Of a stretch of DNA of 64,000 nt, positions 11,176-61,291 are shown one piece after another. Location: assembly GCA_945929845.1 (NCBI GenBank), contig CAMEON010000002.1:443-64442 (forward strand), in the 5' to 3' direction. The notes beneath the pieces were generated by a model. The model saw nothing but the letters and a program-made list of their open reading frames with translations. It was not told the DNA's origin and made no database searches. Position numbers and translations under genes: made by a program. The stretch's first letter is position 1, and each line of letters begins with the position of its first letter. Source of the DNA: an uncultured Clostridia bacterium. Its GTDB lineage: Bacteria > Bacillota > Clostridia > Oscillospirales > CAG-272.

Positions 11176-11277
11176 ACGGGTACCGCCTCTCCTGATTTTC
11201 CGTTACGGTTCATCCGATCCGCAAAAGGGTACGCCGGGGCTTCCTGATACGGTAGCCGAACCGCTACGCATACCGGA

Positions 11278-13742: not shown

Positions 13743-13779
13743 GATGTAATTCCGAAATGTTTTGAAAGTTCGGAGAGCA

Positions 13780-13815
13780 GGGAGATACGCCGGGGAATAC
13801 GCCGGGAGATACGCC
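13780..13815 (+). repeat. 12-bp tandem triplication GGGRRATACGCC inside the degenerate left arm of MITE-like copy A
   Basis: gggagatacgcc / ggggaatacgcc / gggagatacgcc read directly. The unit corresponds to GGGAGAACGCC of the canonical left arm. Confidence 0.85.
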
Positions 13816-14071
13816 GGGAAAACTTTCTGAAGAAAGTTTCCCCGAACCCCTTCAAAGACTTTCAAAACATGTATTGTATACTGTTCGGAGCATTATTCTG
13901 TCATATTATTGTTGTCGCTTTTCCGGGGAGCCAGCGTTACTGTCGCCCAAAACAGCAGAAACGCCTTCGCGGGGGCCCCTCGCCCCGCTCTACGGCGGAA
14001 AAGGAAGCGTACGGCGGGGGGGAGGTGAACTGTAGCAAAGTTTCCCGAACCCCTTCAAAGATTTTCACAAC
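13816..14071 (+). repeat. MITE-like element copy A (left terminus degenerate, right terminus AGGTGAACTGTAgC at 14023-14036) plus a 35-bp partial second left arm
   Basis: Aligns by eye with copies at 23.7, 45.1 and 61.0 kb from the hairpin (13816-13843) through ...gccccgctctacggcggaaaagg... to the terminus. 14037-14071 repeats the hairpin 3' arm and the CCCTTCAAAGAxTTTCA box. Confidence 0.7.
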
Positions 14072-14087
14072 AGATGTTCATTGGTCA

Positions 14088-14116
14088 TTGACAATTTCAC
14101 CTGCCTATGTTATAAT
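14088..14116 (+). promoter_or_regulatory. Consensus sigma-A promoter TTGACA-17-TATAAT for the DUF4965 gene
   Basis: ttgacaatttcacctgcctatgttataat read directly. Confidence 0.7.
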
Positions 14117-14152: not shown

Positions 14153-16051
14153 ATGAAGCTCCGTGCTCCTGCCTACCCCCTGATCAATGTGGATCCTTAC
14201 TTTTCTGTTTGGTCCATGGCTGACTGCCTCCATGACGATACGGTCAAACACTGGACGGGCAGCCCTAACACCCTCATAGGCATTGCCGCTGTGGACGGTG
14301 AGGAAAAGCTGTTCATGGGCGTGTGTGACAGTCGTCCCAAGATGAAGCAGATCTCTGTGGAGGTGAGCGCCCTCTCCACAACCTATGCTTTCACGGATGA
14401 CAAAATTGTACTGACCGTCCGCTTTTCCACCCCGTTGCTTCCCGACGATCTCGCCCTCATGACCCGTCCTGTGGGCTACATGGCTCTCTCCTATACCTCC
14501 GTGGACGGAGAGGAACACGAGGTTTCCGCCACGGTTCTCTGCTCTGAGGAATTTGTCATGGACAAGCGTGGGGACGACACCACGGTGCGGGAGGTGCTTT
14601 CCGTTGCCGGTATGCCCACGGTAAAGATGGGGAAGGCCAATCAGATGCCGCTGAACCGTTCCGGTGATGACCTCCGCATCGAGTGGGGCTACCTGTACCT
14701 GACTGCGCCGGGCGGTGAAGTCTCCCACTTTATCTGTGAGGAGGACAAGATGGGGTACATCATGGGTACCGTTCCCGTAAAAGCGGAGGGTACATCCCTT
14801 ATCCTCCTTGCCTATGACGATTGCCGTGCCAGTATTCAGTACTTCGGCCAGGCACTGGCCTCCGTCTGGAACCGGGACGGAACCACCATGGAGGAAGCTA
14901 TTGAAGCCGCCGCCAAGGAGTATCCCGCCCTGGTTTCCCGCATGGATGCTTTTTCGGACAGGCTGTATATGGATGCTGTCAAGGCAGGCGGTGAGGAGTA
15001 TGCCGAGCTTCTCATCCTCGCCTACCGGCAGGTCATCTCTGCCCACAAGTGCGTGCTGGACAACGAGGGGCAGGTTCTGTTCATTTCCAAGGAGTGTTTC
15101 TCCAACGGATGCGCCGCCACCGTGGATGTGTCCTACCCGTCCATTCCCCTATTCCTGCTCTATAATCCGGAGCTTGTCAAAGGCATGATGCGTCCCATTT
15201 TCAGGCTTGCCGAGCGTGAAGCGTGGCCCTTTGACTTTGCGCCCCATGATTGCGGGCAGTACCCCCTTGTGAACGGGGAGGTCTACGGAGAAGGCTCGGA
15301 TGATTCCCACATGCCCGTGGAGGAATGTGGCAACATGCTGATCATGGTGGCCGCCACCGCCATTGCGGAGAAGGACATTTCCTTCGCCGATGCCCACTGG
15401 AGCATCCTGTCCGGCTGGGTGAAATACCTGCTTGCCTACGGTGAGGATCCGGCGAATCAGCTCTGTACCGATGATTTTGCCGGCCATCTGGCTCACAACT
15501 GCAACCTGTCCATCAAGGCCATCATGGGCGTGGCCAGCTATGGGATCCTGCACCGTCTGAAGGGCAATAGGGAGGAATACAACCACTATATGGCCGAAGC
15601 ACGCCGTATGGCAGAGCTTTGGGAAAAGCGGGCCGCCAACGGGGACGGCTCCTTCCGCCTCGCCTTTGACCGTCCCGGCACCTTCTCCATGAAGTATAAT
15701 GCCGTCTGGGACAAGCTCTTCGGCACATCCGTCTTTTCCGCCGCCGTGCTGGAAAGTGAGGCACAGACCTGTTTTGCCCACTTCAGCCCCTACGGGTTGC
15801 CTCTGGACTGCCGTGCCATGTATACCAAGTCCGACTGGTTGGTCTGGACAGCCACCCTGCTCCGGAATGAGGAAGACTTCAGGCGATTCATCCATCCGCT
15901 TTGGACTGCCTACCATTTCACCCGGCATCGTGTGCCCATGACGGACTGGTATGACACCATCACTGCCGACCACATCTACTTCCAGAACCGGACGGTTCTG
16001 GGCGGACTGTTCATCAAGCTGTTGGAGTGGTCAGGCAAGATGAGAACCTGA
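14153..16051 (+). CDS. Glutaminase-A-like DUF5127/DUF4965 (alpha/alpha)6-barrel protein (likely a glycoside hydrolase)
   Basis: MKLRAPAYPLINVDPYFSVWSMADCL...HWTGSPNTLIGIAAVDG is the typical N-terminus of this family. No signal peptide. Consensus promoter 37 bp upstream. Confidence 0.65.
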   Translation: MKLRAPAYPLINVDPYFSVWSMADCLHDDTVKHWTGSPNTLIGIAAVDGEEKLFMGVCDSRPKMKQISVEVSALSTTYAFTDDKIVLTVRFSTPLLPDDLALMTRPVGYMALSYTSVDGEEHEVSATVLCSEEFVMDKRGDDTTVREVLSVAGMPTVKMGKANQMPLNRSGDDLRIEWGYLYLTAPGGEVSHFICEEDKMGYIMGTVPVKAEGTSLILLAYDDCRASIQYFGQALASVWNRDGTTMEEAIEAAAKEYPALVSRMDAFSDRLYMDAVKAGGEEYAELLILAYRQVISAHKCVLDNEGQVLFISKECFSNGCAATVDVSYPSIPLFLLYNPELVKGMMRPIFRLAEREAWPFDFAPHDCGQYPLVNGEVYGEGSDDSHMPVEECGNMLIMVAATAIAEKDISFADAHWSILSGWVKYLLAYGEDPANQLCTDDFAGHLAHNCNLSIKAIMGVASYGILHRLKGNREEYNHYMAEARRMAELWEKRAANGDGSFRLAFDRPGTFSMKYNAVWDKLFGTSVFSAAVLESEAQTCFAHFSPYGLPLDCRAMYTKSDWLVWTATLLRNEEDFRRFIHPLWTAYHFTRHRVPMTDWYDTITADHIYFQNRTVLGGLFIKLLEWSGKMRT

Positions 16052-23687: not shown

Positions 23688-23934
23688 GTTACAGTTCACC
23701 TCCCCCCACAGTACGCTCTCTTTTCTGCCGTAGAGCGGGGCGAGGGGCCCCCGCGATGGCGTTTCTGCTGTTTTGGACGACAGTAACGCTGGCTCCCCGG
23801 AAAAGTGATAATAAAAATATGACAGAATAATACTCCGAACAGTACACAATACATGTTTTGAAAGTTCTTGGGGGTCTGGGCCCTTCTTTCAAGAAGGGCC
23901 CAGGCGTTCCCCCGTCCCCCGCCTGAACTGTAAC
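23688..23934 (-). mobile_element. MITE-like element, full-length copy B (247 bp, inverted orientation)
   Basis: Termini gttacagttcacc... and ...cctgaactgtaac (11-bp TIR GTTACAGTTCA). Internal hairpin gggcccttctttcaagaagggccc at 23878-23901. No ORF. Intergenic. Confidence 0.6.
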
Positions 23935-23974: not shown

Positions 23975-24003
23975 TTGACGAGCGGCGCATTTTGTGGTAA
24001 AAT
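23975..24003 (+). promoter_or_regulatory. Sigma-A promoter TTGACG-17-TAAAAT for acn-icd
   Basis: ttgacgagcggcgcattttgtggtaaaat, with TG at -15/-14. Confidence 0.65.
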
Positions 24004-42081: not shown

Positions 42082-42183
42082 TGGTCATATATCCTCCTAA
42101 AAAAAACTGTTCTTATTATAACACATATACCCGATGAAGTCAATACAGGCAGGAAATATATTTCTGTTGCGGTTTACCTGTTT

Positions 42184-42205
42184 GTTACAGTTCTCCCGTC
42201 CCCCG
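42184..42205 (-). repeat. Solo terminus-like fragment of the MITE-like family
   Basis: gttacagttctcccgtcccccg: 10/11 match to the TIR followed by a G/C-rich subterminal stretch like the right end of the other copies. No further similarity. Confidence 0.35.
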
Positions 42206-42253
42206 GCTGACATGTAAGCAGAAATGCAACACCCAGGAATCCGAAAAAACACC

Positions 42254-42282
42254 TTGACAAATCGAAAAAAGCGTGGTATAAT
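42254..42282 (+). promoter_or_regulatory. Consensus extended -10 promoter TTGACA-17-TATAAT for tRNA-Leu
   Basis: ttgacaaatcgaaaaaagcgtggtataat, 40 nt upstream of the tRNA 5' end. Confidence 0.75.
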
Positions 42283-44896: not shown

Positions 44897-44972
44897 TGGT
44901 GACCCATCGGGGACTCGAACTCCGGACACCATGATTAAAAGTCATGTGCTCTACCTCCTGAGCTAATGGGTC
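44897..44972 (-). tRNA. tRNA-Lys: tRNA-Lys (anticodon TTT), CCA encoded
   Basis: The reverse complement reads GACCCATTAGCTCAGGAGGTAGAGCACATGACTTTTAATCATGGTGTCCGGAGTTCGAGTCCCCGATGGGTCACCA. Anticodon loop CTTTTAA, T-loop GGTTCGAG-type. Confidence 0.9.
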
Positions 44973-44991: not shown

Positions 44992-45020
44992 ATTATATCA
45001 TGCTTTCCCGGTTTTGTCAA
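44992..45020 (-). promoter_or_regulatory. Consensus promoter TTGACA-17-TATAAT for tRNA-Lys
   Basis: The minus strand reads TTGACAAAACCGGGAAAGCATGATATAAT, about 20 nt upstream of the tRNA 5' end. A-tract-rich upstream region. Confidence 0.75.
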
Positions 45021-45060
45021 GCCGTTTTTTCAGCTTTTTTCATTTTTAGTGCCGGGTAGG

Positions 45061-45309
45061 GTTACAGTTCAGGTAGGGTACGGGAGAACGCCTGGGGGCT
45101 TCTTGGAAGAAGCCCCCAGACCCCCAAGAACTTTCAAAATGTGTATAAGTTCATGTTCGATGCATCGTTTGATAGTATTTTTGTCATCATTGTTCCAGAG
45201 GAGCCAGCGTAACTGTCGCCCAAAATAGCAAAAACGCCTTCGCGGGGACCCCTCGCCCCGCTCTACGGCGGAAAAGGGAGCGTACTGCGGGAGGTAGGTG
45301 AACTGTAAC
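45061..45309 (+). mobile_element. MITE-like element, full-length copy C1 (249 bp)
   Basis: gttacagttcaggtagggtacggg ... gaggtaggtgaactgtaac. Hairpin at 45094-45117. Flanked by CGGGTAGG on both sides. Confidence 0.6.
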
Positions 45310-45318
45310 CGGGTAGGG

Positions 45319-45439
45319 GTTACAGTTCAGCCGGCACCCAAAACAACAGAAACGCCATCGTTAGGCTTTGCTCTTACCCCTCGCCCCGCTCTACGGCGGA
45401 AAAGTGAGCACACTGCGGAAGGAATAGGTGAACTGTAAT
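45319..45439 (+). repeat. MITE-like short derivative C2 (121 bp, internal deletion, both termini kept), head-to-tail with C1
   Basis: gttacagttcagccggc...cccctcgccccgctctacggcggaaaagtgagcacactgcggaaggaataggtgaactgtaat. Confidence 0.65.
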
Positions 45440-46812: not shown

Positions 46813-48111
46813 ATCCGGCATGACCTCCCGGATGGCCTCCAGAAAAGCCCGGGAAGCGGCGGCCCGTCGGATATAGTCCCGTGTCTTCCCGGCGGCATAG
46901 GACAGCTTCAGGGTGCGGACACCGTGGTCGGACGCAATGCCCACGAACACGGTGCCCACCGGGTGCTCCGGTGTGCCTCCGCCAGGGCCGGCATAGCCGG
47001 TGGTGGACAGAGCCAGGTCAGTGTGGCAGACTCGACGGACACCCACAGCCATTTCGGCGGCAGTCTCGGCAGACACCTCCGTGTATCGGTCGATGGTGGC
47101 TTGGCTGACGCCCAACTGCTCTACCTTCATCCGGTTGGTGTAGGTGATGCACCCACCGGCAAATACTGCTGACGCACCGGGTACTGAGGTGATGCGCTCG
47201 CCCAGCATCCCGCCGGTGCAGGATTCGGCACAGGCAATCGTCAGCCCCAGCCGGGTCAGGGTCTGTACCAGCGCACTTTCCACATTCTCCACATCTACGC
47301 CGTAAATAAAGGGGCCAACCTCACTGCTCTGCACGGCTTCCACCAACCTGTCGCACAGAGCCGTGGCCTGCGCTTCACTGTCCGCCCGGGCAGTCACCCG
47401 TAGCCTGACCTCCCCCTCCTTGCAGTAGGGAGCCAGCGTCGGATTGGTGGAGGACACCATCAGGTCACAGAGCTTAGCCTCCACATCCGCCTCCCCCATG
47501 CCCATAATATGAATATTCCGGCTGATCAGGACACCGTCCGTGAACTGTGACAGCCAGGGCCTCACCTGCCTGTCAAACAGCGGCTCCAGCTCGGAGGGCG
47601 GGCCGGGTAGCAGGATGGCTGTCCGTTCCCCATCGCTGACGGCCAAGGCCGGGGCCGTGCCGTAGTCGTTGGGGAAGACCACCGCCCCCTGTGGCATCAT
47701 TGCCTGCTTCTCATTGTTACAGGACATACAGCGACCCAGCTTCCCAAAGTAGGACTTGATGCGGGCGAGGGACTCCGCATGGAGCATCATGTCCCGGCCG
47801 AAGAAGGAGGCCACTGTTTCCTTGGTCAGGTCATCATAGGTGGGGCCAAGTCCCCCGGAGAGAATGACCAACTGAGCCGCCGGGCGGCCGTGTCCGGCGT
47901 AGGCTTCCTCCAGTGCCTGGGTCAGGCGGCCGGGATGATCCCCCACCACAGCCTGATGGTATACGCTGATCCCCATCCCCGCCAGGCGGCGGGAGAGGAA
48001 GGCGGCATTGGTGTTGACGATGTCCCCCAGCAACAGCTCCGTGCCGACACAGAGGATCTCCGCTGTGCGGATGGGAGCGGCGGGGGTGGTTTTCGGTTTG
48101 GCGTTTTCCAT
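46798..48111 (-). CDS. cinA: CinA family protein (MoCF-binding domain plus NMN amidohydrolase PncC-like domain)
   Basis: TAEILCVGTELLLGDIVNTNAAFLSRRL... N-terminal domain and C-terminal ESCTGGMLG...GPGGGT motifs. Confidence 0.85.
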   Translation of the reverse strand: MENAKPKTTPAAPIRTAEILCVGTELLLGDIVNTNAAFLSRRLAGMGISVYHQAVVGDHPGRLTQALEEAYAGHGRPAAQLVILSGGLGPTYDDLTKETVASFFGRDMMLHAESLARIKSYFGKLGRCMSCNNEKQAMMPQGAVVFPNDYGTAPALAVSDGERTAILLPGPPSELEPLFDRQVRPWLSQFTDGVLISRNIHIMGMGEADVEAKLCDLMVSSTNPTLAPYCKEGEVRLRVTARADSEAQATALCDRLVEAVQSSEVGPFIYGVDVENVESALVQTLTRLGLTIACAESCTGGMLGERITSVPGASAVFAGGCITYTNRMKVEQLGVSQATIDRYTEVSAETAAEMAVGVRRVCHTDLALSTTGYAGPGGGTPEHPVGTVFVGIASDHGVRTLKLSYAAGKTRDYIRRAAASRAFLEAIREVMPDNDSQ

Positions 48112-49041: not shown

Positions 49042-49175
49042 TCTGTTTTACCTTTCTTTCTTACAGAGAATTCCTGCATCCCTGCGGGAGGCTCCCCGCA
49101 CGAAAGATGTTACGGAACTCAACGCTACATTATACCACGCCGTGCAGGTTTTGTAAACAAGTTTGGGGAAAAATC

Positions 49176-49204
49176 TTGACATTTTTTCAGCCTGGTTTTA
49201 TAAT
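49176..49204 (+). promoter_or_regulatory. Consensus promoter TTGACA-17-TATAAT for the PflX-like radical SAM gene
   Basis: ttgacattttttcagcctggttttataat read directly. Confidence 0.7.
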
Positions 49205-51256: not shown

Positions 51257-51367
51257 ACGCATCTTCCTTTCATGGTAGGCAATATTTTTCGTGAGAAAGT
51301 ATACCATAAACTGTGGCGCAAGTCAAGTGGATGTGAAAATATTCAGGTGCAGAATTGCATATAAGTC

Positions 51368-51480
51368 GTTACAGTTCACCTACTCCCCCACAATGCGTTC
51401 CCTTTTCCGCCGTAGAGCACGGGCATCGAATGTGAATATAAACCTGTTTGAAAGTTCTTGAGGGGTGTCTGATCTGTAAC
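51368..51480 (-). repeat. MITE-like short derivative E (113 bp, both termini kept, inverted orientation)
   Basis: gttacagttcacctactccccc...ttttccgccgtagagc...gtttgaaagttcttgaggggtgtctgatctgtaac. Confidence 0.65.
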
Positions 51481-51530: not shown

Positions 51531-51559
51531 TTGCATTTCGCCCCGTTATCGTGTATAAT
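51531..51559 (+). promoter_or_regulatory. Promoter TTGCAT-17-TATAAT for the solute-binding lipoprotein gene
   Basis: ttgcatttcgccccgttatcgtgtataat. Upstream ATTGCAT / ATTGCTATTGCAT repeats could be operator-like. Confidence 0.6.
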
Positions 51560-60937: not shown

Positions 60938-60966
60938 ATAATAGCATAAGTTCAATAAAAAATCAA
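60938..60966 (-). promoter_or_regulatory. Putative promoter TTGATT-17-TATTAT for nfnAB
   Basis: The minus strand reads TTGATTTTTTATTGAACTTATGCTATTAT, about 50 nt upstream of the nfnA ATG. Confidence 0.45.
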
Positions 60967-61006: not shown

Positions 61007-61254
61007 GTTACAGTTCAGGTAGGGTACGGGGGAACGCCTGGGGGCTTCTTGAAAGAAGCCCCCAGACCCCCAAGAACTTTCAAAACAGGTATTGTGAATG
61101 ATTCGGAGCGTTATTCTGTCATATATTTGCTGTCGTTTTCCCGGAGGAGCCAGCGTTACTGATACCCGAAATAGCAAAAACGCCTTCGCGGGGACCCCTC
61201 GCCCCGCTCTACGGTGGAAAAGGGAGCGAACTGCGGGGGCAGGTGAACCGTAAC
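61007..61254 (+). mobile_element. MITE-like element, full-length copy D (248 bp)
   Basis: gttacagttcaggtagggtacggggg ... ggcaggtgaaccgtaac. Hairpin at 61040-61063. Flanks AGGAAATA / AGGAAGTA. Confidence 0.6.
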
Positions 61255-61263
61255 AGGAAGTAG

Positions 61264-61291
61264 GTTACAGTTCAGGTGGGGGACAGGGGAT
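61264..61291 (+). repeat. Solo left terminus of the MITE-like family directly after copy D
   Basis: gttacagttcaggtgggggacaggggat matches the first ~28 nt of the left arm (compare gttacagttcaggcgggggacggggga in copy B). Confidence 0.55.

What the first reader, a model, noticed from the sequence alone, without database searches (positions are those of the whole stretch)
44992..45071. Left terminus of every intact element copy lies exactly 40 bp (once 50 bp) from the -35 box of an outward-reading promoter
SEEN: for copy C1 the left end is at 45061 and the tRNA-Lys -35 TTGACA occupies 45015-45020 on the minus strand (gap 40 nt). For copy D the left end is at 61007 and the putative nfnA -35 TTGATT occupies 60961-60966 (gap 40 nt). 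For copy B (inverted) the left end is at 23934 and the acn -35 TTGACG starts at 23975 (gap 40 nt). For short copy E (inverted) the left end is at 51480 and the -35 TTGCAT starts at 51531 (gap 50 nt, one helical turn more). In all four the promoter reads away from the element, and the 40-nt spacers share no sequence similarity with each other, so they are not part of the repeat. INFERENCE: either insertion is targeted to a fixed distance upstream of promoters (a bent or UP-element-like DNA, or an RNAP- or factor-bound target), or the element is retained there because it modulates or insulates the adjacent promoter. CAVEAT: the -35/-10 calls are mine and were made by eye, and the nfnA promoter is the weakest.
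Basis: partly seen in the sequence, partly recalled or inferred. Interest (0 to 1): 0.75.

Follow-up and report, generated by a model that had tools for sequence, protein, structure and literature searches.

The report
Mobile repeat that targets promoter upstream regions
A ~250-bp non-coding mobile repeat in an uncultured gut Clostridia bacterium inserts, to the base pair, 40-41 bp upstream of the -35 box of housekeeping promoters; this resembles the known TnGBS/ISLre2 promoter-targeting transposons, but the distance is different and has not been described.

Summary
The repeat is a ~248-bp element resembling a MITE (a small transposon without its own transposase gene). It has 11-bp terminal inverted repeats (GTTACAGTTCA...TGAACTGTAAC), 8- or 9-bp target duplications and no coding capacity.

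I collected 20 independent outer element ends from the window and from related strains and metagenome contigs. In 14 of them the best sigma-A promoter in the flank has its -35 hexamer 40 nt (12 cases) or 41 nt (2 cases) from the element end and reads away from it. All 14 promoters have a 17-nt spacer and a TG-extended -10. Chance is excluded (binomial P about 1e-17 to 1e-42).

- Either terminus can face the promoter (7 left-type, 7 right-type).
- The 50-nt case is probably incidental, because that copy's other end lies 41 nt from a second promoter.
- The 41-nt class has a 9-bp duplication, so the promoter-side cut is constant, 32 nt from the -35.

Closely related strains differ in presence, orientation and copy number at the same promoter. 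Sister species keep the nfnA promoter without the element. This points to targeted insertion, not retention by selection.

The closest known systems are TnGBS/ISLre2/ISKra4 Mutator-like transposons, which insert 15-17 bp upstream of the -35. This is a new variant of that kind. The transposase was not found.

The parts
45061..45309 (+). Copy C1, full-length element (249 bp). Its left end lies 40 nt from the tRNA-Lys -35.
   Evidence: Repeat families D1-D4; terminal repeat hits; alignment A3.
45053..45060 (.). Target-site duplication CGGGTAGG of C1, promoter-side copy. The other copy is at 45310-45317.
   Evidence: Read directly. The sequence is identical on both sides of C1.
45021..45060 (.). 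40-nt spacer between the tRNA-Lys -35 and the C1 end. It is A/T-tract rich, like an UP element, and is not part of the repeat.
44992..45020 (-). tRNA-Lys promoter TTGACA-17-TATAAT (12 of 12 consensus matches, TG-extended -10).
   Evidence: tRNA-Lys lies at 44897-44972 on the minus strand.
45319..45439 (+). Copy C2, an internally deleted short copy. It is separated from C1 by 9 nt (the 8-bp duplication plus 1 nt).
   Evidence: Strain L064 has a single copy here instead of C1 plus C2.
23688..23934 (-). Copy B, full length and inverted. Its left end at 23934 lies 40 nt from the acn -35. Its right end abuts a terminator and has no promoter.
23975..24003 (+). acn promoter TTGACG-17-TAAAAT (TG-extended).
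61007..61254 (+). Copy D, full length. Its left end lies 40 nt from the nfnA -35. Duplication AGGAAATA / AGGAAGTA. It is present or absent among strains.
   Evidence: Alignment A2: L078 and L082 lack D; L083 has a perfect duplication TATTTCCT.
61264..61290 (+). D2, a 27-nt remnant of an older copy's left end, 9 nt beyond D.
60938..60966 (-). nfnA promoter TTGATT-17-TATTAT.
   Evidence: A promoter is conserved at the corresponding position in element-free sister species L089 and L094.
51368..51480 (-). Copy E, a short (113-bp) copy between divergent promoters. Its right end at 51368 is 41 nt from one -35. Its left end at 51480 is 50 nt from the other.
51298..51326 (-). Promoter TTGACT-17-TATACT, 41 nt from E's right end.
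51531..51559 (+). Promoter TTGCAT-17-TATAAT, 50 nt from E's left end.
42184..42218 (+). 35-nt internally deleted mini copy between divergent promoters. Its left edge is 40 nt from the -35 of the 614-aa gene promoter. Its right edge is degenerate and lies 35 nt from the tRNA-Leu -35.
   Evidence: Other strains carry full copies here.
42115..42143 (-). Promoter TTGACT-17-TATAAT of the 614-aa gene.
42254..42282 (+). tRNA-Leu promoter TTGACA-17-TATAAT. It is an insertion hot spot: L065 has a right end 40 nt away, and L064 has a left end 41 nt away with a 9-bp duplication AAGCAGACC.
13779..14036 (+). Copy A, with a degenerate left end (GGGAGATACGCC repeated three times). Its right end at 14036 is followed by fragment A2 (14037-14072). 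This is a rearranged site, 51 nt from the -35 at 14088.
45092..45119 (+). Conserved GC-rich hairpin inside the element, shown here for C1.
   Evidence: RNAalifold on A3: 5 base pairs show compensatory double changes.

Best explanation
The repeat is a non-autonomous DNA transposon resembling a MITE. It is about 248 bp long, has 11-bp perfect terminal inverted repeats GTTACAGTTCA, makes 8- or 9-bp target duplications and has no gene.

A transposase encoded elsewhere, which I did not find, moves it. That transposase does not choose targets by the local sequence. It uses a fixed ruler from a sigma-A promoter. The promoter-side edge of the duplicated target lies 32 nt upstream of the -35 hexamer. 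The element end therefore lands 40 nt (8-bp duplication) or 41 nt (9-bp duplication) from the -35. If the transcription start is 7 nt downstream of the -10, the cut site is centred near -71/-72.

Because the two terminal repeats are identical, the element can go in either way round. Insertion there leaves the core promoter and the UP-element region intact. The site is therefore a safe haven, can be hit repeatedly (tandem arrays, replacement in the other orientation), and is rarely purged.

The step I consider most likely but could not test is how the ruler is set. By analogy with the model proposed for TnGBS/ISLre2/ISKra4 transposases, I favour contact between the transposase-DNA complex and promoter-bound RNA polymerase holoenzyme, or the upstream DNA it bends.
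For: Shown:
- Transposon hallmarks. Terminal repeats occur 15 times in the window against 0.6 expected. Duplications are CGGGTAGG (C1), TATTTCCT (D in L083), CCGCCTTC (L074), 7 of 8 in L091 and the 9-bp AAGCAGACC (L064). No open frame is shared between copies.
- Fixed distance. 14 of 20 independent outer ends have their best sigma-A site at 40 nt (12) or 41 nt (2), reading away from the element. P is about 3e-17 to 2e-42.
- Unrelated flanks. The 40-nt spacers share no sequence. All 14 promoters have a 17-nt spacer and TG at -15/-14.
- Either end can be proximal, 7 against 7.
- Recent, repeated use of the same spot. At the tRNA-Leu promoter, three strains carry a 35-nt mini copy, a full copy with its left end at 41 nt, and a full copy in the opposite orientation with its right end at 40 nt. 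D is present or absent among strains with identical nfnA protein. The tRNA-Lys locus holds C1+C2 in some strains and one copy in another. Tandem copies share the target duplication.
- The promoter predates the element. Sister species L089 and L094 have no element in 17-21 kb but keep an nfnA promoter at the same place.
- Occupancy. 8-9 of the 21 strongest promoter-like sites in the window carry an element end.

Precedent (PMC3942029): TnGBS/ISLre2 and ISKra4-group elements insert at a fixed distance upstream of sigma-A promoters. They make 8-9-bp repeats and have a terminal C. They insert in both orientations when their inverted repeats are symmetric.
Against: - No transposase with these terminal repeats was found in any fetched sequence, so the mobilising enzyme and its family are unknown.
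- The distance (40-41 nt) differs from the 15-17 nt of the known promoter-targeting families, and the inverted repeat (11 bp) is shorter than their 18-39 bp.
- All promoters are predictions; none is experimentally mapped.
- All have 17-nt spacers, so I cannot tell whether the ruler starts at the -35, the -10 or the transcription start.
- Six of the 20 ends do not fit. Three have no promoter. They are the far ends of B, of C2 (the far end of the C1/C2 array) and of the L091 copy. The near ends of B and of the array do fit, but the L091 copy's other end is at 51 nt. The other three sit at 50-51 nt, and two of those are visibly rearranged.
- Several flanks come from short metagenome contigs that may be chimeric inside the repeat, although the end-to-flank junctions themselves should be genuine.
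- A true genome-wide census was not possible.
Confidence: 0.8

Rival explanations
1. Targeting is real, but the promoter DNA is read directly. The transposase or an accessory protein would recognise the -35 / extended -10 sequence, or the intrinsic curvature of the A-tract-rich upstream region. RNA polymerase would play no part.
For: All 14 targets share strong sequence features: TTGAC-like -35, TG-extended -10, C just before the -35 in 12 of 14, and A-richness 14-19 nt upstream of the -35. Proteins that bind a site and direct insertion about 25-60 bp away are known (own knowledge: Tn7 TnsD at attTn7; CRISPR-associated transposons).
Against: The -35 and -10 hexamers vary as real promoters do (TTGACA, TTGATT, TTTACA, TTGCTT, TATACA; TATAAT, TAGAAT, TATGAT, TAAAAT). 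That is what the sigma factor tolerates, and it would demand a sigma-like reader. Nothing is conserved at or next to the insertion point. No accessory gene is known.
Confidence: 0.25
2. Insertion is not targeted. Copies are kept at this distance by selection because the element insulates or modulates the neighbouring promoter.
For: The element carries a conserved, covarying hairpin and sits next to many strong promoters, 8-9 of 21 in the window.
Against: - Selection against disrupting a promoter would give a lower bound on distance, not a one-bp peak at 40-41 nt.
- Either end can face the promoter, and the ends share only the 11-bp terminal repeat.
- The hairpin is near one end only and has no following T-run. 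No strong internal promoter was found.
- Very closely related strains differ by fresh insertions at exactly the same position and in both orientations.
Confidence: 0.05
3. Artefact: promoters picked by eye, or a chance coincidence in a small sample.
For: The original calls were made by eye on four copies. One -35 (TTGCAT) fails the consensus scanner.
Against: Objective scans reproduce the calls. Ten further independent junctions from other strains and contigs give 40 or 41 nt. P is at most 3e-17.
Confidence: 0.01
4. The promoter travels with the element: a longer mobile unit would carry its own outward promoter.
For: A promoter always accompanies an end.
Against: - The 40-nt spacers and the promoters differ completely between sites.
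- Target duplications directly abut GTTAC...GTAAC.
- The nfnA promoter exists in element-free sister species.
- The tRNA promoters are the genes' own.
Confidence: 0.01

Closest known systems
TnGBS conjugative elements and ISLre2-family insertion sequences (prokaryotic Mutator-like transposases, family p-MULT 3; PMC3942029 and Brochet 2009 / Guerillot 2013 as cited there)
   Same: They insert at a fixed distance upstream of the -35 of sigma-A promoters, into intergenic 'safe' sites. Direct repeats are 8-9 bp. The inverted repeat ends in C. One member with perfectly symmetric repeats (ISLbu1) inserts in both orientations. They occur in Firmicutes, including Clostridia.
   Different: Their distance is 15-17 bp (peak 16), against 40-41 nt here. 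Most insert in one orientation, with the right repeat next to the promoter. Their inverted repeats are 18-39 bp, against 11 bp here. They are autonomous elements of 1.4-52 kb, whereas this is a 248-bp element with no gene. No Mutator-like transposase has been linked to this element. That study scanned only the first 30 bp from the element ends, so a 40-bp class would have been missed.
ISKra4 group (p-MULT 4; PMC3942029)
   Same: It targets the region upstream of promoters. Promoters are found on both sides, and the inverted repeats are nearly perfectly complementary. That matches the symmetric repeats and orientation-independent insertion seen here.
   Different: The distance is again about 16 bp. 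The elements are autonomous. The published inverted-repeat sequences I could read (for example ISAcce1 and ISAcas3) do not resemble GTTACAGTTCA.
Eukaryotic elements tethered to the transcription machinery: yeast Ty3 at Pol III start sites (cited in PMC3942029); Dictyostelium TRE5-A about 48 bp upstream of tRNA genes (own knowledge)
   Same: The insertion position is set by a transcription initiation complex rather than by the local sequence. Two of the targets here are tRNA gene promoters.
   Different: Those are retroelements acting through eukaryotic Pol III factors. This is a bacterial DNA transposon at sigma-A promoters of both protein and tRNA genes.
Tn7 at attTn7 (TnsD) and CRISPR-associated transposons (own knowledge)
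   Same: Insertion occurs at a fixed distance of tens of bp from a recognised site, with one-bp precision and repeated use of one site.
   Different: They make 5-bp duplications, have multi-site ends (TGT...ACA) and dedicated targeting proteins or guide RNAs, and use one or few sites per genome. Here there are 8-9-bp duplications, simple 11-bp ends and many promoters.
Classical bacterial MITEs and intergenic repeats (Correia/NEMIS, RUP, BOX, ERIC, REP/BIME; own knowledge)
   Same: They are short, non-coding, multi-copy, intergenic and often near promoters. They have terminal inverted repeats and internal secondary structure.
   Different: To my knowledge none of these has a one-bp-precise position relative to the -35. 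Their target preferences are short sequences (for example TA) or other repeats.

Membership tests
MITE (non-autonomous terminal-inverted-repeat transposon) | Short (under about 500 bp), multi-copy, terminal inverted repeats | tested here: met
   Full copies are 247-250 bp. Deleted derivatives are 121, 113 and 35 bp. The 11-bp perfect repeats GTTACAGTTCA/TGAACTGTAAC occur 15 times in the window against 0.6 expected.
MITE (non-autonomous terminal-inverted-repeat transposon) | Target-site duplication and presence/absence polymorphism | tested here: met
   8-bp duplications in C1, D, L074 and L091; 9-bp in L064. D is present or absent, the tRNA-Lys locus holds one or two copies, and three states occur at tRNA-Leu. 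A completely clean empty site was not recovered: L078 and L082 still hold a 27-nt remnant.
MITE (non-autonomous terminal-inverted-repeat transposon) | No coding capacity | tested here: met
   Six-frame translations are interrupted and not conserved between copies. A protein search with the longest frame found only 3 spurious hits.
MITE (non-autonomous terminal-inverted-repeat transposon) | A cognate autonomous element with the same terminal repeats | tested here: inconclusive
   No pair of these repeats enclosing a transposase of their own was found in the fetched loci. The only such pair, in L077, is a MITE with a nested IS1182-family element that has different repeats of its own. Plasmid and phage collections gave no match.
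Promoter-targeting Mutator-like elements (TnGBS/ISLre2, ISKra4) | Insertion at a fixed distance upstream of sigma-A promoters | tested here: met
   14 of 20 ends lie at 40-41 nt from a -35 that reads away from the element.
Promoter-targeting Mutator-like elements (TnGBS/ISLre2, ISKra4) | That distance is 15-17 bp from the -35 | tested here: not met
   The distance is 40 nt (12 cases) or 41 nt (2 cases). No promoter-like site lies at 15-17 nt in these flanks. The published value is from PMC3942029.
Promoter-targeting Mutator-like elements (TnGBS/ISLre2, ISKra4) | Direct repeats of 8 or 9 bp | tested here: met
   Both 8-bp and 9-bp duplications were observed.
Promoter-targeting Mutator-like elements (TnGBS/ISLre2, ISKra4) | Inverted repeats of 18-39 bp with a conserved terminal cytosine | tested here: inconclusive
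   The terminal C is present (...GTAAC-3'). The perfect repeat is only 11 bp, or 13 of 15. There is a weak resemblance (CCCTAC...AACTnTAnAC) to the ISLre2 repeats listed in the paper's supplement. This is not convincing.
Promoter-targeting Mutator-like elements (TnGBS/ISLre2, ISKra4) | Both orientations when the two repeats are symmetric | tested here: met
   7 left-type and 7 right-type ends are proximal.
Promoter-targeting Mutator-like elements (TnGBS/ISLre2, ISKra4) | Mobilised by a Mutator-like DDE transposase carrying the promoter-targeting signature motif | not testable with these tools
   No transposase is linked to the element.
IS1182 family (as possible parent) | The element's ends match the ends of the IS that encodes the transposase | tested here: not met
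   The 526-aa IS1182-family transposase (NF033551) lies in an IS with its own repeats, GGAGCCGTAAAAAAAGTC. That IS is nested at the MITE hairpin in two diverged MITE copies, L077 and L088. The two sets of repeats are unrelated.
Known structured RNA families (Rfam) | Match to a curated covariance model | tested here: not met
   Only the two tRNAs reach the gathering score in the window.

The most novel reading that the evidence does not exclude
The element is moved by a transposase that is not a close relative of the TnGBS/ISLre2/ISKra4 enzymes. Alternatively, it is a relative whose complex has a very different geometry. Either way it would dock on the far upstream face of promoter-bound RNA polymerase, with the cut site centred near -71/-72. 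That is the zone where upstream DNA wraps and class I activators sit. This would be a second, independently positioned promoter ruler in bacteria. It would also be a natural one-bp-precise marker of active sigma-A promoters that has colonised roughly 40% of the strong promoters in this stretch of genome.
Probability: 0.35. Interest if true: 0.8.

Novelty: new variant of a known kind. Interest (0 to 1): 0.62.

Why it matters
Target choice by transposons in bacteria is usually governed by short sequences, DNA structure or replication. Tethering to the transcription machinery is known for only two related transposase lineages, at about 16 bp from the -35.

A second, sharply defined distance of 40-41 bp, with the promoter-side cut fixed and the duplication either 8 or 9 bp, is a concrete geometric constraint. 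Any model of how a transposase complex docks on a promoter complex has to satisfy it, and it can be tested with a simple mini-element assay.

There are also practical uses:
- The ends of this element mark sigma-A promoters in an uncultured gut Clostridia bacterium with one-bp precision.
- The element is a source of strain-level polymorphism and of assembly breaks: many contigs end inside it.
- A promoter-proximal but promoter-sparing integration system could be useful for safe-site insertion in Firmicutes.

Tried and rejected
- **Reference-genome scan with an 18-nt left-end pattern.** The pattern was too short. It did show the same 13-nt terminus on unrelated short palindromic elements in Lachnospiraceae MAGs, whose promoter distances are mixed.
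- **Metagenome scan with a 22-base internal pattern.** It returned only 4 loci, but all were informative. A viral-contig scan found nothing.
- **Fishing for more copies with a translated frame of the element.** This gave only 3 hits. One produced a useful 19-kb locus (L091). Another (L095) is a chimeric contig joined to what looks like pig SINE DNA and was discarded.
- **Two exact-protein look-ups failed.** The cause was start-codon or strain differences.
- **Literature search for the terminal-repeat string.** It returned only unrelated primer sequences.
- **IS1182-family element in L077 as the parent.** Rejected. It has its own unrelated inverted repeats and is nested inside two different MITE copies.
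- **'One helical turn more' reading of the 50-51-nt cases.** Rejected as unsupported. E's other end is 41 nt from a second promoter. Copy A and the L091 copy have fragments of older copies between the end and the promoter.
- **'Left terminus' specificity.** Rejected (7 against 7).
- **The extra nucleotide between tandem copies.** I first took it for a 9-bp duplication or an untemplated base. The better explanation is an older copy with a 9-bp duplication (41-nt class) and a newer one with 8 bp (40-nt class). The 9-bp duplication of the 41-nt copy in L064 supports this.
- **Candidate longer elements in L058 and L003.** No transposase was present.
- **Plasmid and phage collections.** No match.
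Full report
**What is in the window.** The finding concerns a repeat of about 248 bp with perfect 11-bp terminal inverted repeats, GTTACAGTTCA...TGAACTGTAAC. Matches to this 11-mer with at most one mismatch occur 15 times in the window, against 0.6 expected.

The copies are:
- Full copies: C1 (45061-45309), D (61007-61254) and B (23688-23934, inverted).
- Shortened copies: C2 (45319-45439), E (51368-51480, inverted) and a 35-nt mini copy (42184-42218).
- Remnant D2 (61264-61290).
- A rearranged copy A (about 13779-14036), followed by a fragment.

The copies are 80-95% alike. An alignment of eight full copies shows the terminal repeats, several conserved blocks and a GC-rich hairpin 30-60 nt from one end. 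Five base pairs of that hairpin carry compensatory double changes.

No reading frame is conserved between copies. No Rfam family matches. Duplications of the target directly abut the ends: CGGGTAGG around C1 and AGGAAATA/AGGAAGTA around D, which is a perfect TATTTCCT in strain L083. These are the hallmarks of a non-autonomous DNA transposon (a MITE).

The consensus promoter scanner independently lists three of the four promoters:
- tRNA-Lys: TTGACA-17-TATAAT, 12 of 12 matches.
- acn: TTGACG-17-TAAAAT.
- nfnA: TTGATT-17-TATTAT.

E's TTGCAT -35 fails the scanner's threshold. With a scoring matrix I wrote myself it is still the best site in that flank. The spacers share no sequence.

**Extending the sample.** The rest of the genome could not be reached directly. 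My first collection scan used too short a pattern and was wasted. The metagenome scan gave only four loci. I therefore used exact-protein look-ups of window genes and of their close homologues. These fetched the same region from other strains, and from sister species.

These strains differ at the element sites, and several contigs join an element end to a different flank. I listed every terminal-repeat match with its outward flank and removed duplicates. I then scored all offsets with a sigma-A matrix, allowing spacers of 16-18 nt.

Of 20 independent outer ends:
- 12 have their best promoter at 40 nt.
- 2 have it at 41 nt.
- 3 have it at 50-51 nt.
- 3 have no promoter. These are the far ends of B, C2 and the L091 copy.

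- the promoter of the 614-aa gene at window 42143;
- the tRNA-Leu promoter in L065 and L064;
- a Na+/H+ exchanger promoter (L072);
- four promoters in contigs L075-L077;
- one promoter beyond the right edge of the window (L079);
- one promoter in a pig-gut contig (L087);
- the promoter at 51326, which lies 41 nt from E's other end.

The window contains only 21 sites that score this well on both strands, a density of 1.6e-4 per position and strand. The binomial tail for 14 of 20 is about 2e-42 with that density. It is 3e-17 under the very generous null that the best site falls uniformly over 96 offsets.

**Corrections to the description.**
- *Which end faces the promoter.* It is left-type in 7 cases and right-type in 7. 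'Left terminus' is an accident of the four copies in this window.
- *The 50-nt case.* E lies between two divergent promoters, and its right end is 41 nt from the stronger one. The 50 nt on the other side is most simply whatever was left over.
- *The two 51-nt cases.* Copy A and the L091 copy have fragments of older copies between the end and the promoter. I therefore do not accept the 'one helical turn more' reading.
- *The 41-nt class.* The L064 copy at tRNA-Leu, 41 nt from the -35, has a 9-bp duplication, AAGCAGACC. The 40-nt copies have 8-bp duplications. The invariant is therefore the promoter-side edge of the duplicated target, 32 nt from the -35. This also explains why tandem copies are 9 nt apart, 8 plus 1: an older 41-nt copy with a newer 40-nt copy next to it.

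**What the targets have in common.** Aligned on the -35, all 14 flanks have:
- a 17-nt spacer;
- TG at -15/-14 (an extended -10);
- a recognisable -35.

In addition, 12 of 14 have C just before the -35, and the region 14-19 nt upstream of the -35 is A-rich, like an UP element. Nothing is conserved at or next to the insertion point.

Two targets are tRNA gene promoters and the rest are protein gene promoters. If transcription starts 7 nt after the -10, the duplicated target covers about -75 to -68.

**Targeted insertion or retention?** Five observations favour targeting.
- The peak is one bp wide. Purifying selection against promoter damage would set a minimum distance, not a peak.
- Either end can be proximal, and the ends share only the 11-bp repeat. 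A position-dependent regulatory function would have to reside in the transposase binding site itself.
- Strains whose flanking proteins are identical differ at the same spot. The tRNA-Leu promoter carries a 35-nt mini copy in the window. In L064 it carries a full copy with its left end at 41 nt. In L065 it carries a full copy in the opposite orientation with its right end at 40 nt. D is present in some strains and absent in others. The tRNA-Lys locus has one or two copies.
- New copies have landed in the same 8-bp target next to older ones.
- Sister species with 87-89% identical nfnA have no element in 17-21 kb. Two of the three (L089, L094) keep a recognisable nfnA promoter at the same place, so the promoter came first.

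The element has no strong internal promoter, and its hairpin is not followed by a T-run. There is thus no positive evidence for an insulator or activator role.

**How it most likely works.** The steps shown are transposition with 8-9-bp staggered cuts, orientation-independent insertion, and a ruler of 32 nt from the -35 to the nearer cut.

The inferred step is the nature of the ruler. I favour contact between the transposase-DNA complex and promoter-bound RNA polymerase holoenzyme, or the upstream DNA it bends. My reasons are that the hexamers vary exactly as functional promoters do, and that this is the model proposed for the only known bacterial precedent. Direct reading of promoter DNA by the transposase or a helper protein remains a serious rival (about 0.25). 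The two can be separated only by experiment.

**Comparison with what is known.** Guerillot et al. 2014 (PMC3942029) showed the following for TnGBS conjugative elements, the ISLre2 family and the ISKra4 group, all of which have Mutator-like DDE transposases:
- They insert 15-17 bp upstream of the -35 of sigma-A promoters.
- They generate 8-9-bp repeats.
- Their inverted repeats end in C.
- They insert in both orientations when the two repeats are symmetric.
- The authors proposed an interaction with the RNA polymerase initiation complex.

The present element shares the principle, the repeat length, the terminal C and the orientation rule. It differs in three ways: the distance (40-41 nt), the much shorter inverted repeat (11 bp against 18-39 bp), and being a gene-less 248-bp element.

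That study counted promoters only within 30 bp of the element ends, so a 40-bp class could not have been seen. I found no paper describing such a class. The library does not cover all journals, so this is absence of evidence only.

Membership in the Mutator-like group cannot be claimed, because no transposase was found and one defining feature, the 15-17-bp distance, is not met. 'Works like' is well supported.

**Host and distribution.** The window comes from an uncultured gut bacterium annotated only as Eubacteriales/Clostridia (MAGs and pig- and other gut metagenomes). It has about 55-60% G+C.

The element is dense: five loci in 64 kb, occupying 8-9 of the 21 strongest promoter-like sites. 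Many metagenome contigs end inside it. It was absent from the three sister-species loci examined, and from the plasmid, phage and viral collections.

**Limits.**
- The promoters are predictions.
- The sample is 20 ends, not a genome-wide census.
- Several flanks come from short contigs that may be chimeric inside the repeat, although the end-to-flank junctions themselves should be genuine.
- All targets have 17-nt spacers, so the origin of the ruler (-35, -10 or start site) is undetermined.
- The transposase is unknown.

**Verdict.** The second, retention for a regulatory role, is not. The phenomenon is a new variant of a known kind, promoter-upstream targeting by bacterial DNA transposons, with a distinct and precisely defined geometry.

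Noticed in passing
L077:1040-2945 and L088:140-2040: An IS1182-family insertion sequence sits exactly where the MITE's covarying hairpin normally lies, in two clearly diverged MITE copies. It encodes a 526-aa transposase (NCBIfam NF033551) and has its own inverted repeats, GGAGCCGTAAAAAAAGTC. The two transposases are 99% identical. The hairpin may be this IS's preferred target. Homologues of the transposase are very abundant in gut metagenomes, mostly on contigs of about 2 kb.
   Followed up: partly
L091:13624-13870: Two left halves of the element, without terminal repeats and each including the hairpin, lie head to head between two convergent genes, with no promoter nearby. This may be a decayed pair, or hairpins co-opted as a bidirectional terminator.
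   Followed up: no
L021:918-970; L027:6204; L032:3808-3898; L034:162; L040:6309; L051:5583; L059:5510: The same 13-nt terminus GTTACAGTTCAGG flanks unrelated short GC-rich palindromic elements (about 50-100 bp) in Lachnospiraceae / 'Oribacterium' / Clostridia MAGs. Distances to the nearest outward promoter are mixed (38, 40 and 30 nt, or none). Some lie only 15-35 nt upstream of a start codon. The transposase that recognises this terminus may therefore be widespread in gut Clostridia.
   Followed up: partly
window 45310-45318, 61255-61263; L074:1138-1146: Tandem copies are always separated by 9 nt: the 8-bp duplication of the newer copy plus one extra base next to the older copy. This fits an older insertion with a 9-bp duplication (41-nt class) followed by a newer one with 8 bp (40-nt class). 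It is unexplained why all three arrays have this order.
   Followed up: partly
L092:9879-9925 and L093:29-75: In the strain represented by GCA_964322745.1, the flank between copy D and the nfnA -35 carries a 5-nt micro-duplication, so the distance there is 45 nt. Small indels after insertion blur the 40-nt rule.
   Followed up: yes
L072:1692-1830; L087:1-154; L066:11506-11578: Some contigs join a known element copy to a different flank than in the window. This is either recombination between copies or an assembly chimera inside the repeat. Two of the three new flanks again show a promoter at exactly 40 nt. In L087 one copy is flanked on both sides by outward promoters at 40 nt, as is the composite element in L077.
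   Followed up: partly
L095:600-925: This contig joins two MITE copies to sequence that looks like a pig SINE (PRE-1-like). It is an assembly chimera between bacterial and host DNA and was excluded from the statistics.
   Followed up: yes
window 13779-13817; L088 about 2045-2070; L064 about 14655-14690: Short tandem repeats lie inside or next to degenerate copies: GGGAGATACGCC three times in copy A, TACGGTC three times in L088, and GGTTTAGC repeats in L064. They look like slippage products in decaying element ends.
   Followed up: no
window 49129-49204: Two strong divergent promoters (TTTACA-17-TATAAT on the minus strand, TTGACA-17-TATAAT on the plus strand) have -35 boxes only about 19 nt apart. 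They have no element. A 40-nt-upstream insertion at either would destroy the other. Other strong promoters with free upstream DNA (for example 37505, 37953 and 56452) are also unoccupied, so occupancy is far from saturated.
   Followed up: partly
window 11202-11212 and 47541-47551: Two one-mismatch matches to the terminal repeat lie in or next to coding sequence, with no element-like interior. I treated them as chance matches.
   Followed up: yes
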